Below are positions 5,284 to 44,274 of a stretch of 64,000 nt of DNA, in pieces. The stretch's first letter is position 1, and every line of letters starts with the position of its first letter. Source of the stretch: Octopus sinensis. Taxonomy: Eukaryota. Location: contig NC_042998.1 in assembly GCF_006345805.1 (NCBI RefSeq), positions 38,192,001-38,256,000 of the forward strand. The letters run 5' to 3'. The notes beneath the pieces were generated by a model. It had not been told where the DNA came from. It did no database searches and saw only the letters and a list, made by a program, of their open reading frames with translations. The translations under genes were made by a program, and so were the position numbers.

Positions 5284-5547
5284 TGATTCTAGTTTCAGCT
5301 CACGAGCTGTGGCCATGCTGGGGCACCGCCATATATATATATCGTTTTTAAAAATCATAAATCAGAAAGAAGCACAAGATGTGGAGCGGTATAAATTAAA
5401 AATGGGGAAGGACGGTTTATGGAATTACTTTAGGGTTCCTGCCCATAAAGGCTTTCGCTTCATGGCGTATCGTCAGATCCCAAAAACAGGTTGGCCCATG
5501 GCCTCTTAAATATATATTTATTCTTAAATATATATATATATATAACT

Positions 5548-6390
5548 TTGAGAAGTTTCGGCCAGTATAGGCCCAGTCGATGCCTAACTTAATAGCACCA
5601 CCTAGTGAATTCTTTAATCATACATGGGGCACCATGGCCCACTCTAGCAAAGAGTTATTATTGTTGGAGACAATATCCAGGTGTAGGTGGTTGGTCCGGG
5701 ATTTTTTGAAGTAACTTGTCCAGTGAACATTTGAATTTTATGGGATCCGTCTCCGTTTTGACGTATTTTGGTATGGTATTAAAGAGAGATGGACCGGTTA
5801 AAGTAAAGTAGTTGTGACGTAATATTGTTACGTGTCCTGAGTTGGATTTTTGTAGTGGACAGATAGCACGGGGGCCAAGTCTTGGATGGAAACAGCAAAT
5901 GAAAGAACATTTTGGAATTGAGTTTTATTTCCTCAATGGCCCAATTCTTCTCGGCCGCTCTGTATTTGTTAATGATGGTTATCATGCTTTTTTAGAGGTT
6001 GTATTTTTTTTATTCGAGTGATCCAATGGCAGTCAAATGGGTTCGTTATTGTAGCCAATATTTAAGTCGGTTGATTTTCTTGTTAATTCTTTTTATTTTT
6101 CTGATAATTGCTCTTCTATTTCTAGGGATTGTGCACTGATTTGTACACTGATCTTAACGGAGTATGTTTGGCGTACATATTTGTTACACTATCTACAAAT
6201 GTCTGCCATGATGTATTTATGTTGGTGGGGTGTGTGTGTGCACGTGAGAAGGCCCAATCAGCTTGTGAAAGATCATGATTGATCGCATCCCAGTCTTCGT
6301 TATGAAGATCCATAATGTCAAATGGATGAGCTGCAGAGATGTCATTGGACTGGATCTTTGGGTGGTAGAATCTCAGATAGCATATGAACA
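5548..6390 (-). mobile_element. CR1/L2-group LINE relic with the RT region deleted and the 3' end retained
   Basis: Minus strand: [19 protein letters not shown] (post-endonuclease) and AIEEIKLNSKMFF (pre-RT) join directly to FHPRLGPRAICP..GPSLFNTIPK..LDKLLQKIPDQPPTPGY..NNNSLLEWAM (C-terminus). Tail is ..GGGCCTATACTGGCCGAAAC, then (TA)n. Confidence 0.8.
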
Positions 6391-14955: not shown

Positions 14956-15170
14956 CAAAATGTATGTATTCATATATATGTATTCATATATATGCTCACA
15001 CAAAGGCTTCATTACGTATAATTATACACATACATACACATACACACATGCACACACGCACACACACAAAGATATATAGTATAAAAGTGTCGAATATTAC
15101 ATGTATACATATAAAGATATAGACATATGTATGCATATACACATTTCTATATGAGCATGCTTCTACATAT

Positions 15171-15226
15171 GATGCTATTAAGTTAGACATGGACGGGCCA
15201 ATCTTTGTCTGAAACATATCTAAGTT
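15171..15226 (+). mobile_element. Isolated 3' tail of the CR1-group LINE
   Basis: GCTATTAAGTTAGACATGG..TCTTTGTCTGAAACATATC aligns with the LINE tail at 44221-44274. Confidence 0.6.
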
Positions 15227-15420
15227 ATATATGTATGCAATGCGTGCATGTAATTTATATTATGGTTGAATATTGATTTCTATGGAAGAAGACGAAGCAT
15301 TAATATTTCTAAGGATGGCTGAAATATTAAAATATTGGAATTACTGCACATTTCGGTGATTAGTTGTCGTCACTGAAACGCAGTGGAGAAATACATTTGC
15401 GTAATTATAGACATCTGATG

Positions 15421-15600
15421 AGTTTGATAGGTTTCGGCCAGTATAGGCCCAGGCCATGTATAACTCAATAGCAGCACCTGGAAAAGTGTGAGCTGCTTAC
15501 AGTCCCAAGCGGTCACCCATCAAGTACTCACTAGGGTCGACGTTGCTTATCTTCGGTGATCGGACGAGAACCGGTGCTTTCAACGTGATATGGCCGTAAG
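15421..15600 (-). mobile_element. 5S-head + CR1-group LINE-tail chimera (SINE3-like)
   Basis: The 5S head, a 13-nt linker, then GGTGCTGCTATTGAGTTATACATGGCCTGGGCCTATACTGGCCGAAACCTATCAAACT, which matches the LINE 3' end at 5548-5604. Confidence 0.7.
15495..15600 (-). pseudogene. 5S rRNA: 5S rRNA-derived sequence (pseudogene or SINE head) with a deletion of about 10 nt near the 3' end
   Basis: Minus strand CTTACGGCCATATCACGTTGAAAGCACCGGTTCTCGTCCGATCACCGAAGATAAGCAACGTCGACCCTAGTGAGTACTTGATGGGTGACCGCTTGGGA-CTGTAAGC is recognisably metazoan 5S, with A-box and C-box regions retained. Confidence 0.93.
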
Positions 15601-16159
15601 ATCAATTTGCAGCTCAAAATTATACTATTTGAATTTAAAGTGTGTTTATAGATACTAAAACAGATCCCTTACTAAAATAAGTTAAGTGGCTGTTGTCTCT
15701 TTTCCAGTTTGTGTGAAATGGCATGGTAGTTCATAGGTATATTTTACCTTCTTATTCTAGAAATCGTTCAAATTTTAACGTTTAACCCCGGGAAATATGT
15801 AGTTCCATCCAGTACACAAGCTATTCGCTTCTTTTCTAGCATAACTCTATACATCTTGGTTCATATCATAAACTTAATTCATATCCAGGTTTATAATTTT
15901 TATTACATACATCTGCATTCATTATTCACTTCTTTTATCTTCATAGAACGAATGAGCTTCTTTTCTTCTAATAATGTTTTCTTTTATTTTCTCTACGAAA
16001 TTTAGAGAAATACATTGGGAATTCAAACAATAACAAGTGAAATAAAGATTATATCTCTTCAGCCATATTCTAATAACCTGCTTACATCTTAGAGAATTCG
16101 TCCGTCTATTGTGAAAATTAATCTTAATTCTTAAATTCTTAATGTGTGCGCGCGTCTCG

Positions 16160-42704: not shown

Positions 42705-43603
42705 TTATATTAAGCCCGTTCCGTGGTAAATATTTTGGATAGGCAGCTTTTTGCGTGATTTAATAAATTGTTTAATTGTTTGCTTGGTGCTGTTGAATTA
42801 TTATATGCAGTATTCCGTAAATTAACCAATAACTCATCCTAGTAACATTGGTACAACACTCGCCACAGCTACAAAAGTATGTTCTTAGAAATTAGTACTT
42901 TGCATCTAGAAATATTTTTCATCTTCTTTCAAGCTGAACTGAGACTCCAAGGACCAAATATTAAACAAATAAGCATTTGAATCACATTACCCAATATCGG
43001 AACATGAATTTATTAGGTAAGACTACAAAATCGTGAGCTCGGCAAAACTATAAAAAGCAACCTAAGAACATAGCAATCGACGGAATGGTAATACAGCCTA
43101 TACAGAGAGGTGTAAACTGTTATTATATTTGAGAATATGAGAAGGCGCTGAGGTTGATGGATCAATTAATTACAGAGCAAGAACTGAATAGCTGAAGAGG
43201 TTGAAAGAAATATGGTCATATCGTATCCTCATACATGCTTTTGTTCTCCTGAACTGGTTTATAAACAACCTGCTCAATGTTATGAGAAACTACAGAATGT
43301 GACAGGATAATTCAACGTAAATTTGGATTGGGAACAAATTATATTCCTACGCAAAGCAGTCAGCGCTCGTGTTAAATCTGTTGTACAAACAAATGGGATG
43401 AGGAAAGTAACAGTGAGCCAACTTCCCGAGCAGCGCATAATTTTGCACATAGCCTACCGGAAGTTTGTAAAAACAAAAATATAGTTTTTCTTTGTTTGTT
43501 TTTTTTTTACAGCAAAGCTTTATTCTCTCCACCGCCGCCGTGCGCGCTACATCATTTACACAATGTGGGAAAGAAACCATCAGCATTGTCGAAAGGACCT
43601 TAT

Positions 43604-43671
43604 ACTATAGCCTCGAGCCGACCAAAGCCTTGTGAGTGAATTTGGTAGAGAGAAACTGAAAGAAGCCCGTC

Positions 43672-43761
<90 letters not shown>

Positions 43762-43975
43762 CTGTCTGTCTTTGTCTCCCCAACAGCACTTGAAAACCGA
43801 TGCTGGTGTGTTTACGTCCCTGTAACTTAGCGGTTCGGCATAAGAGACCGATAGAATAAGTACTGGGCTTACAAAGAATAAGTCCTGGGACCGATTTTCT
43901 CGACTAAAGGCGGTGCTACAGCATGGCCACAGTCACATGACTGAAACAAGTAAAAGAGTAAAAGAGTAAAAAAGA
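43604..43975 (+). mobile_element. SINE family A, 5'-truncated
   Basis: Body and tail match the other copies. Confidence 0.9.
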
Positions 43976-43984
43976 GACGCATAA

Positions 43985-44274
43985 ATTCACTGTAAGACAA
44001 ATTCTTTTCCTCAACAAGGCCTGCCCTGTTTAACATTATCCCAAAACAAATCAAAGAAGATAAAGATCTCCCTCACCTTCAAACGAAACCTGGACAAATT
44101 TGTTCAAGGGACACCAGATAAACCACCTATATGTGGATACATTTCAGTCGACAATAACTCCCTGCTTGAATGGGCCATGATACCACAAAGTCTTCAAAAT
44201 GCCTTAACAGATCCTATCAAGTGGTCCTATTAAGTTAGACATGGCCTGGACATAATCTTTGGCCGAATCATATC
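43985..44274 (+). mobile_element. CR1-group LINE 3' end, same group as 5548-5890
   Basis: PALFNIIPKQIKEDKD..FKRNLDKFVQGTPDKPPICGYISVDNNSLLEWAMIP, then tail CTATTAAGTTAGACATGGCC..GGCCGAATC. Confidence 0.8.

What the first reader, a model, noticed from the sequence alone, without database searches (positions are those of the whole stretch)
15421..15600. 5S rRNA head fused to a CR1-group LINE tail: candidate cephalopod SINE3
Seen: a 106-nt 5S copy retaining the internal promoter region, with about 10 nt deleted before the 3' stem. It is followed 13 nt later by a 60-nt sequence matching the LINE 3' terminus at 5548-5604, including 20 identical nt (GTTTCGGCCAGTATAGGCCC), and resembling 44221-44274. 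Established: SINE3s are 5S-headed retroposons with LINE tails and are rare; LINE RT template switching also makes one-off RNA-LINE chimeras. Inference: a minimal SINE3 of about 180 nt whose partner LINE lies in this window. Caveats: the linker contains TTTT, a possible Pol III terminator, and I see no TSD.
Basis: partly seen in the sequence, partly recalled or inferred. Interest (0 to 1): 0.72.

Follow-up and report, generated by a model that had tools for sequence, protein, structure and literature searches.

The report
One-off 5S rRNA–LINE tail chimera
A decayed copy of a variant 5S rRNA transcript is fused to the last ~80 bases of an abundant LINE at a junction found only once in this genome, so it is most likely a one-off by-product of LINE reverse transcription and not a new SINE family.

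Summary
Window 15601-15494 (minus strand) is a 5S rRNA copy (Rfam 71.9 bits) lacking 11 nt. It is followed by a 12-nt trailer ending in TTTT, then by about 80 nt that match the 3' UTR of an abundant APE+RT LINE.

Two exhaustive pattern scans of the 2.72-Gb genome found only four 5S+LINE-tail copies. Each has a different 5S type, trailer, LINE breakpoint and LINE subfamily.

The window's head is a "type II" 5S variant. Of 22 genomic copies with its diagnostic 20-mer, 1 (the window) carries this LINE tail. The other 21 are joined, after trailers of variable T-run length, to other retroelement 3' modules or SINEs, or in 3 cases to none recognised. For another partner, 27 copies show 26 different junctions.

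Best reading: one of many independent chimeric retrocopies, likely made when a LINE reverse transcriptase switched from the LINE 3' UTR to the oligo-U end of a 5S primary transcript. The insertion is old, because contigs from four other organism labels carry its outer junctions. This is a new member of a known kind, of modest interest.

The parts
15494..15601 (-). 5S rRNA-derived head. It is a 'type II' variant, lacks positions 81 and 101-110, and has T in place of G at its first base.
   Evidence: Rfam RF00001, 71.9 bits, E = 3.3e-13. Alignments to array and dispersed 5S copies. The diagnostic 20-mer is shared with 21 other dispersed copies.
15482..15493 (-). 5S 3' trailer GCTCACACTTTT ending in T4 (15485-15482). 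It is read as the end of the Pol III primary transcript.
   Evidence: The same trailer (..CTCACAC + T0-T10) follows the type II head in most of the 21 other copies, before unrelated partners. LINE contigs of other runs diverge from the window just beyond 15481 (table 7).
15431..15481 (-). LINE 3' UTR part with two predicted hairpins (CCAGG...GAAAC).
   Evidence: 84-95% identity to 39 other LINE 3' ends. Alignment A2. RNAalifold gives 15 pairs, 2 of them with compensatory changes.
15401..15430 (-). Three decayed 10-nt terminal repeat units of the LINE tail (CTATCAAACT, CATCAGATGT, CTATAATTAC).
   Evidence: LINE copies of the same subfamily end in 1-3 units of TATCAAAGT before (TA)n. The third unit is my reading of the sequence.
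15601..15610 (-). Candidate 5' target-site duplication GCAAATTGAT. Its last T doubles as position 1 of the head.
   Evidence: 8 of 10 identical to 15400-15391. Empirical p about 0.04 per offset. Not decisive.
15391..15400 (-). Candidate 3' target-site duplication GCAAATGTAT.
5544..6385 (-). Defective LINE fragment of the subfamily closest to the element's tail. It is internally deleted and ends in a (TA)n run.
   Evidence: tblastn with ORF2 of an intact relative: aa 250-410 map to 6385-5902 and aa 916-1003 map to 5891-5627. Tail alignment.
43515..44274 (+). 5'-truncated LINE fragment of another subfamily.
   Evidence: tblastn ORF2 aa 882-1005. Tail alignment.

Best explanation
Window 15601-15401 (minus strand) is a single-copy fusion of a variant 5S rRNA copy, its own T-run trailer and the 3' UTR of an abundant LINE. 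It was most likely made in one insertion event, when the LINE's reverse transcriptase switched template from the LINE RNA to the 3' end of a 5S primary transcript.

Shown:
- The three parts and their order.
- The uniqueness of the junction in the genome.
- The same 5S variant with the same trailer, cut at different T-run lengths, joined to at least four other kinds of retroelement 3' partner at other loci.
- The element at the same locus in contigs of four other organism labels.

Inferred:
- Reverse transcription started at the target on the LINE's 3' repeats and copied the roughly 80-nt 3' UTR module.
- It then jumped, at or near a 4-nt microhomology (ACTT), to the oligo-U end of a nascent type II 5S transcript and copied that to its 5' end.
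- The product was dead on arrival, or nearly so. The T4 between head and tail would be expected to stop most Pol III transcripts before the LINE recognition module.
- It then decayed: 11 nt are lost from the head, two stem pairs in the tail are broken, and the tail is about 10% diverged.
For: (1) Parts: Rfam 5S hit. The tail matches LINE 3' ends at 84-95% identity. An intact relative has ORF1 (385 aa) and ORF2 (1005 aa) with APE and RT domains, and its stop codon lies about 8 nt before the stretch that the chimeras retain.

(2) Uniqueness, first scan: an exhaustive pattern of the 5S 3' end plus the tail core, at most 1 mismatch, gave 87 hits and 0 in the reversed control. Only the window, L002 and L003 have a 5S copy. 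I BLAST-checked 37 of the 87 and judged the other 50 from the printed strings, which are LINE-internal or unrelated sequence.

(3) Uniqueness, second scan: an exhaustive pattern of 5S box-C-region 15-mer plus tail 14-mer, at most 3 mismatches, gave 21 hits and 0 in the control. They are the window, L002, L003, one further copy L133, and 17 copies with another partner.

(4) The four 5S-LINE-tail copies differ throughout.
- Window: type II head, trailer GCTCACACTTTT, LINE from CCAGG.
- L002: canonical head, trailer ATTCC, LINE from ACTTC, and a tail 98% identical to a young subfamily.
- L003: canonical head, trailer ATTCCATTACTTT as in array genes, and a different LINE subfamily.
- L133: type III head, trailer ..GTCTTTT, breakpoint further upstream.

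(5) Of 22 copies with the exact type II 20-mer, the partners are: this LINE tail in 1, the tail module of the abundant tRNA-like SINE in 8, a full tRNA-like SINE in 6, a third SINE in 4, and other sequence in 3. Trailers end at CACAC, CACACTT, CACACTTT, CACACTTTT, CACACTTTTT or CAC+T10.

(6) For a different tail module, 27 exact-pattern copies show 26 different junction strings. The one repeat is a pair 557 bp apart. Recurrent formation is therefore the rule here.

(7) L002 sits as one unit inside a (TA)n run and starts at 5S position 1 preceded by an extra G.

(8) A candidate TSD of 8/10 flanks the whole composite.

(9) 5 of 29 LINE copies of the window's subfamily are 5'-truncated within about 12 nt of the same point. 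This suggests a preferred place where the RT leaves the template.
Against: - No empty site was seen, so a single insertion event is not proven.
- The TSD is imperfect and only marginally unlikely by chance (p about 0.04 per offset).
- All four 5S-LINE chimeras keep a similar tail length (about 72-85 nt), unlike the variable L1 parts of mammalian U6/L1 chimeras. I explain this by a switching hot spot at the 5' edge of the 3' UTR, which is inferred.
- The 9 nt just upstream of the head (CAAATTGAT) equal the upstream flank of one array 5S gene type, which could hint at a DNA-level copy. A profile of array upstream regions found nothing there, and a Smith-Waterman control gave p = 0.022.
- T4 may not be a full terminator in this organism, since array genes carry T7-T20. 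Read-through is therefore not excluded.
- The DNA-mode searches scored only 40 of 837-1906 candidates. By my binomial estimate, the pattern scans would catch about 67% of copies at 90% identity and about 35% at 85%. A few very old siblings could have been missed.
Confidence: 0.72

Rival explanations
1. It is a member, or the founder, of a low-copy or extinct SINE3-like family. The fusion would be transcribed by Pol III from the 5S internal promoter, read through the T4, and be mobilised by the LINE through the shared tail.
For: It has the right architecture: 5S head, then LINE 3' UTR with both predicted hairpins and terminal repeats. The internal promoter region is largely kept. T4 may leak, since array genes use longer T runs. 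The partner LINE lineage is abundant and partly intact: 32,975 first-look candidates, and open frames up to 1166 aa.
Against: No second copy has this junction in two exhaustive scans. The three other 5S-LINE-tail copies differ in head type, trailer, breakpoint and LINE subfamily. The same head and trailer occur with other partners at 18 of 22 loci. No RNA contig bridges the junction, although that is not evidence of absence.
Confidence: 0.1
2. The chimera was made in one event, but by ligation of a 5S transcript to a LINE 3' RNA fragment before reverse transcription, and not by template switching during it.
For: Both routes give the same DNA product. The preprint 10.1101/2025.02.02.635956 (passages read) names RNA ligation as a proposed route for U6/LINE-1 chimeras. 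The constant start of the LINE part near the 5' edge of the 3' UTR could reflect a discrete RNA fragment.
Against: Nothing here separates the two routes. The 4-nt overlap (ACTT) at the window's junction and the untemplated-looking bases at other junctions are more usual for template jumps. That is my inference.
Confidence: 0.1
3. Two-step chance adjacency: a dispersed 5S copy (a DNA-level orphon or a retrocopy), and later an independent 5'-truncated LINE insertion at its T run, or the reverse order.
For: Tail-only LINE copies are common (5 of 29, and many strings). The LINE ends in (TA)n, and the young LINE-A copies, like L002, mostly sit in (TA)n runs. The 9 nt upstream of the head resemble one array gene's upstream flank.
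Against: 19 of 22 type II heads have a recognisable retroelement partner directly after the trailer, far beyond chance adjacency. The partners always have the same orientation and start at their 3'-module boundary or at their own 5' end. The candidate TSD flanks the composite and not one part. The array-upstream profile found no match at the window's flank.
Confidence: 0.06

Closest known systems
U6/LINE-1 and 5S/LINE-1 chimeric retrocopies of mammals (attributed to Buzdin et al. in passages of PMC4758252; census in preprint 10.1101/2025.02.02.635956, passages read)
   Same: A small Pol III RNA lies 5' of a LINE 3' end in one insertion. Each locus has its own junction. The copies do not propagate further. 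In U6 chimeras the small RNA is full length and in sense orientation.
   Different: The enzyme here is not L1. It is a two-ORF APE+RT LINE with a hairpin, short-repeat and (TA)n 3' end and no poly(A). The LINE part is nearly constant in length, about the whole 3' UTR. The preprint reports that mammalian 5S/L1 chimeras are mostly antisense and truncated, whereas these are sense and full length, with the 5S trailer retained.
SINE3, 5S rRNA-headed SINEs (Kapitonov and Jurka 2003, seen only as a citation; lepidopteran SINE3 families in PMC10886601, passages read)
   Same: A 5S-derived head with the internal promoter region, and a LINE-derived tail. The size is about 200 nt.
   Different: There is no amplification: the junction is unique. 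A T4 lies between head and tail. There is no body. The same head is joined to many different partners elsewhere.
Chimeric retrogenes of Magnaporthe made by the MGL LINE (PMC2104539; search listing and start of abstract only)
   Same: A non-L1 LINE produces fusions of cellular RNA copies with LINE or SINE 3' parts, interpreted as template jumps.
   Different: A different host kingdom, and a different acceptor RNA (a non-coding RNA of unknown function instead of 5S).
Composite 5S + tRNA SINE heads of Deu-SINEs (Nishihara et al. 2006, as cited in PMC4758252 and PMC4824008; passages read)
   Same: [quoted passage not shown] The 6 of 22 type II copies joined to a full tRNA-like SINE look like this.
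   Different: Those became amplifying families. I did not test whether the 5S + tRNA-SINE composites here amplify.

Membership tests
SINE3 (5S-headed SINE) | Head derived from 5S rRNA that keeps the internal Pol III promoter region | tested here: met
   Rfam 5S_rRNA 71.9 bits. The region of 5S positions 50-99 is kept apart from one missing base and a few substitutions. The box names and positions are recalled and come from no call. Promoter activity was not tested.
SINE3 (5S-headed SINE) | 3' tail shared with a partner LINE | tested here: met
   15481-15401 matches LINE 3' UTRs at 84-95% identity.
SINE3 (5S-headed SINE) | Many dispersed copies with the same head-tail junction and different flanks (amplification) | tested here: not met
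   Exhaustive scans give four 5S+tail copies in 2.72 Gb, all with different junctions. The window's junction occurs once.
SINE3 (5S-headed SINE) | Transcribable as one unit, with no Pol III terminator between head and tail | tested here: inconclusive
   TTTT lies at 15485-15482 between head and tail. Array 5S genes use T7-T20, sometimes after a first T4, so the efficiency of T4 here is unknown. No RNA contig bridges the junction.
Template-switch chimeric retrocopy (U6/L1-like) | 5' part is a small Pol III RNA in sense orientation that ends at its natural, oligo-U 3' end | tested here: met
   Head plus trailer end in T4. The same trailer, with T0 to T10, precedes other partners. Canonical-head chimeras carry the trailers of array genes.
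Template-switch chimeric retrocopy (U6/L1-like) | 3' part is the 3' end of a LINE or SINE, including its terminal repeats | tested here: met
Template-switch chimeric retrocopy (U6/L1-like) | Each locus has its own junction, and the same RNA recurs with different partners | tested here: met
   Four different 5S-LINE junctions. 22 type II heads with at least five partner classes. 26 different junctions in 27 copies for another partner.
Template-switch chimeric retrocopy (U6/L1-like) | One insertion event, shown by a TSD around the composite or by an empty orthologous site | tested here: inconclusive
   Candidate TSD of 8/10, p about 0.04. Contigs of four other organism labels already carry one or both outer junctions, and no empty site was seen.
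Template-switch chimeric retrocopy (U6/L1-like) | Joined by an RT template jump and not by RNA ligation | not testable with these tools
   Both routes give the same DNA.
Functional 5S rRNA gene | Full-length 5S with intact helices, gene-type upstream region and a long T-run terminator | tested here: not met
   11 nt are missing and the first base is changed. The profile of array upstream regions has no hit at 15602-15671.
   No reference RT set was at hand. Pfam gives RVT_1, Exo_endo_phos_2 and Exo_endo_phos. None of the 88 homologues carries a clade name, and one is auto-named 'mobile element jockey' at E = 4e-24.
   Two predicted hairpins, 9-10-nt repeats, then (TA)n. This feature is shared with other clades, so it does not decide membership.

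The most novel reading that the evidence does not exclude
This genome shows SINE birth caught in the act. At least three LINE or SINE tail families repeatedly hand their reverse transcriptase over, right at the 5' edge of the 3' recognition module, to nascent 5S transcripts of several gene variants. This builds hundreds of independent minimal '5S head + LINE tail' units. The few whose trailer lost its T run would be ready-made SINE3 founders, and the window's copy is one old, failed attempt.
Probability: 0.2. Interest if true: 0.6.

Novelty: new member of a known kind. Interest (0 to 1): 0.3.

Why it matters
For the finding itself, the result removes a candidate 'cephalopod SINE3' and files the locus as an old, inert chimeric retrocopy.

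For the wider picture, the searches show that dispersed 5S-like loci in this genome are largely chimeras. They join 5S primary transcripts (canonical and at least three variants) to LINE or SINE 3' modules, and the junctions differ from locus to locus.

This bears on statements such as the one in the giant squid genome paper (PMC6962438, passage read) that about 24,000 5S-derived loci are 'likely SINEs'. Here they look like recurrent by-products of LINE activity and not like amplifying families.

It also gives a non-mammalian, non-L1 example of chimera formation, with a sharply placed switch point. Such chimeras are the raw material from which SINE heads are thought to be recruited.

Tried and rejected
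1. DNA-level 5S orphon with gene upstream region. The 9-mer CAAATTGAT abuts the head, as it does in one array gene type. An nhmmer profile of 23 array upstream regions found no hit at 15602-15671, and only E = 4-8 noise elsewhere. A Smith-Waterman score of 18 was reached by 2.2% of random 70-mers. BLAST of 400 nt upstream gave nothing better than E = 0.019. I read the 10 nt as a candidate TSD instead.

2. Paralogous flank with L107. The similarity stops 46 nt into the tail and flank at 78% identity. Rejected.

3. Expression or read-through. No run kept as RNA contigs bridges 15486-15498, but neither does the DNA run X1, because contigs break in the repeats. No verdict.

4. Empty site in relatives. 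Runs X2, X4 and X9 carry both outer junctions, X8 only the 5' one, and no empty allele was seen.

5. Fold of the whole 197-nt element: z = -0.78, nothing special.

6. Pfam on three short ORFs: the 162-aa C-terminal ORF of the LINE copy in locus L152, and two ORFs in or near the window's LINE fragment. No families were found.

7. LINE clade. It could not be named from Pfam or from 88 homologues.

8. Earlier notes of this scan: nothing by words or by place.

9. Literature. The searches were '5S rRNA + SINE + octopus' (14 papers), 'chimeric + 5S rRNA + template switching + LINE' (21 papers), 'chimeric retro / template switch / cephalopod' (42 papers with at least 2 terms) and 'SINE3 + mollus' (9 papers). 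None of the listed papers, as far as titles, abstract starts and the passages I read show, describes a cephalopod 5S-headed SINE or 5S chimeras in molluscs. Repbase and Dfam could not be consulted, so 'not catalogued' is not established.

Full report
**What is there**

On the minus strand, Rfam's 5S_rRNA model matches window 15601-15494 at 71.9 bits (gathering score 38, E = 3.3e-13). It is the only Rfam hit in the 64-kb window. I aligned it to this genome's own 5S genes. The copy lacks base 81 and bases 101-110, and it has T instead of G at position 1.

It is followed by GCTCACACTTTT (15493-15482). After that comes a stretch (15481-15431) that aligns to LINE 3' ends. Last come three decayed 10-nt repeat units (15430-15401).

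**The tail donor**

The window lies at G000:C2:38192001-38256000 in a 2.72-Gb assembly. The tail query hit 39 other loci at 84-95% identity. There were 837 first-look candidates, of which 40 were scored.

Most of the 29 loci I inspected continue upstream into LINE coding sequence. Five of the 29 are 5'-truncated within about 12 nt of the point where the window's LINE part begins.

A related, very young subfamily gave 150 scored hits at 96% amino-acid identity or more, from 32,975 first-look candidates. Its open frames reach 1166 aa. One full copy (locus L165) has:
- ORF1 of 385 aa, with a sub-threshold Myb/SANT-like match;
- ORF2 of 1005 aa, with Exo_endo_phos, Exo_endo_phos_2 and RVT_1 domains.

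The ORF2 stop lies about 8 nt before the ACTTC..CCAGG motif. The part kept in the chimeras is therefore almost exactly the 3' UTR. That UTR holds two predicted hairpins (15 pairs, 2 with compensatory changes), 9-10-nt tandem repeats, and then (TA)n.

None of the 88 homologues carries a clade name, so 'CR1-group' remains plausible but untested.

The two LINE pieces inside the window are defective. One is internally deleted (5544-6385, minus strand). The other is 5'-truncated (43515-44274, plus strand).

**Is it a family?**

The whole element as query found only two other loci that cover head, linker and tail: L002 on C7 at 84% and L003 on C18 at 82%. That call listed 44 matches, with 40 of 1906 candidates scored.

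DNA mode scores few candidates, so I ran two exhaustive pattern scans.
- 5S 3' end + 4-30 nt + tail core, at most 1 mismatch: 87 hits and 0 in the reversed control. BLAST with 5S found a head only in the window, L002 and L003 among the 30 hits that came as loci. None of 7 further fetched hits had one. The other 50 I judged from the printed strings alone.
- A 15-mer of the 5S body + 35-65 nt + a 14-mer of the tail, at most 3 mismatches: 21 hits and 0 in the control. These are the window, L002, L003, one new diverged copy (L133 on C7), and 17 copies with a different partner.

By my binomial estimate, the second scan would catch about 67% of copies that are 90% identical and about 35% of those that are 85% identical. 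A large family is excluded. A few very old siblings are not.

**The four 5S-LINE-tail copies are not siblings**

| Copy | 5S head | Trailer | LINE part |
|---|---|---|---|
| Window | Variant type II | GCTCACACTTTT | From CCAGG; a fourth subfamily |
| L002 | Canonical array-type | ATTCC | 83 nt from ACTTC; 98% identical to the young subfamily |
| L003 | Canonical array-type | ATTCCATTACTTT, as downstream of array genes | A different subfamily; starts about 12 nt later |
| L133 | A third variant type | ..GTCTTTT | Breakpoint further upstream |

L002 lies as one unit inside a (TA)n run.

Contigs of LINE copies in other sequencing runs diverge from the window just beyond 15481 (table 7). This places the breakpoint at the T4/CCAGG border. 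ACTT is shared by both sides.

**Where the head comes from**

Among 57 distinct 5S copies that I collected, 23 lie in array loci and 34 are dispersed. The dispersed ones fall into canonical, type I, type II and type III heads.

The window's type II head is marked by two substitutions and by the trailer ..CTCACAC + T run. An exhaustive scan for its 20-mer gave 22 exact hits, and 289 hits with at most 1 mismatch. The control gave 0 and 2.

In those 22 copies the trailer ends after CACAC, CACACTT, CACACTTT, CACACTTTT, CACACTTTTT or CAC+T10. The partners that follow are:
- the roughly 55-nt 3' module of the abundant tRNA-like SINE: 8 copies;
- a whole tRNA-like SINE from its 5' end: 6 copies;
- a third SINE from its 5' end: 4 copies;
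- this LINE tail: 1 copy, the window;
- something else: 3 copies.

For a further tail module, 27 exact-pattern copies have 26 different junction strings. Their trailers are of array type or type I, cut at many lengths. The single repeat is a local pair 557 bp apart.

Variable trailers on a fixed partner start, and one head type on many partners, are what recurrent independent joining predicts. Amplification from a master does not predict them.

**Mechanism**

The best-supported reading is the one known for U6/LINE-1 chimeras (passages of 10.1101/2025.02.02.635956; PMC4758252). The steps below are inferred.
1. Reverse transcription primes on the LINE or SINE 3' end at the target.
2. It copies the 3' recognition module.
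3. It then switches to the oligo-U end of a nascent Pol III 5S transcript and copies that to its 5' end.

Features that fit this reading:
- Many chimeras start exactly at 5S position 1, often with one extra G.
- The partner is always in sense orientation and is either a 3' module or a full short SINE.
- A 4-nt overlap lies at the window's junction.
- A candidate 10-bp TSD (8 of 10; p about 0.04 per offset) flanks the whole composite.

RNA ligation before reverse transcription would give the same DNA and cannot be excluded.

It would be expected to keep most transcripts of the new copy from reaching the tail. That agrees with the lack of daughters.

**Age**

Contigs of runs under four other organism labels carry the element's outer junctions at the same locus.
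- X2: 15100-15452 and 15573-15900.
- X4: 15228-15422 and 15571-15900.
- X8: 15571-15900.
- X9: 15170-15478 and 15566-15897. The latter piece has 25 differences in 332 letters.

No empty site was seen. The tail is about 10% diverged from its subfamily. The head is a median 87.8% identical to the other 21 type II copies. The insertion is therefore old and shared.

**What remains open**

- The 9 nt upstream of the head equal one array gene's upstream flank. The controls were weak or negative.
- Four type II-like copies (window, L170, L171, L188) have internal deletions of different length that all end just before ..GTAAGC. This may point to RT skipping inside the 5S template.
- Whether T4 terminates here, whether any 5S chimera with a T-less trailer is transcribed and copied, and the clade of the LINE were not settled.
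- The literature searches and the passages read showed no description of cephalopod 5S-headed SINEs or 5S chimeras. Repbase and Dfam were not available.

**Verdict**

The locus is an old, single-copy chimeric retrocopy. It is one of hundreds of independent 5S chimeras in this genome and a new member of a known kind.

Noticed in passing
G000:C4:131.88-131.98 Mb and C4:135.79 Mb (loci L005-L015, L028-L030): Tandem 5S rRNA gene array with units of about 500 bp in both orientations. It has a conserved AT-rich upstream block (..TATAGAATAAATA..) and terminators of T7-T20, some preceded by a first T4.
   Followed up: partly
Dispersed loci L010, L018, L021, L022, L027, L137, L142, L143, L145, L147-L149: A 'type I' 5S variant (three diagnostic substitutions, trailer ATAGCACATTGTTT..) is over-represented among the chimeras: 12 of the 34 dispersed copies sampled. 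One solitary copy (L021) has a proper T10 terminator and may represent the source gene type.
   Followed up: partly
27 loci listed: 5S joined to a third tail module (GGTGGTGCCCCAGCATGGCC.., ending in ATTTAAGG repeats). 27 exact-pattern copies show 26 different junctions, with both array-type and type I trailers.
   Followed up: partly
L166-L187; held loci scanned: The roughly 55-nt module that follows many 5S heads is the 3' end of the abundant tRNA-like SINE (..CTCGACTAAA then GGCGGTGCTCCAGCATGGCC..). In the chimeras it starts right at that boundary. The switch point at the 5' edge of the terminal module thus recurs in a second element family.
   Followed up: partly
L002/L033, L023, L026, L027, L139, L141, L147, L168, L189, L192: Many chimeras begin with one extra G before 5S position 1 and often lie in (TA)n runs. 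This may be an untemplated base added at the template's 5' end.
   Followed up: no
window 15494-15510; L170, L171, L188: Four type II-like copies carry internal 5S deletions of different length (about 7 to 25 nt) that all end just 5' of ..GTAAGC. This may reflect RT skipping within the structured 5S template.
   Followed up: no
L165 (G000:C9:76546000-76551500) and the 150 places listed: A very young and abundant LINE subfamily: 32,975 first-look candidates, 150 scored hits at 96% identity or more, and open frames up to 1166 aa. ORF1 has a sub-threshold Myb/SANT-like match and a Q-rich region. Its copies end in, and mostly sit in, (TA)n microsatellites.
   Followed up: partly
window 15100-15234: Very high summed contig depth in all runs laid (thousands, against 4-55 for the unique flanks). 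Another repeat therefore lies about 170 nt downstream of the element (table 2).
   Followed up: no
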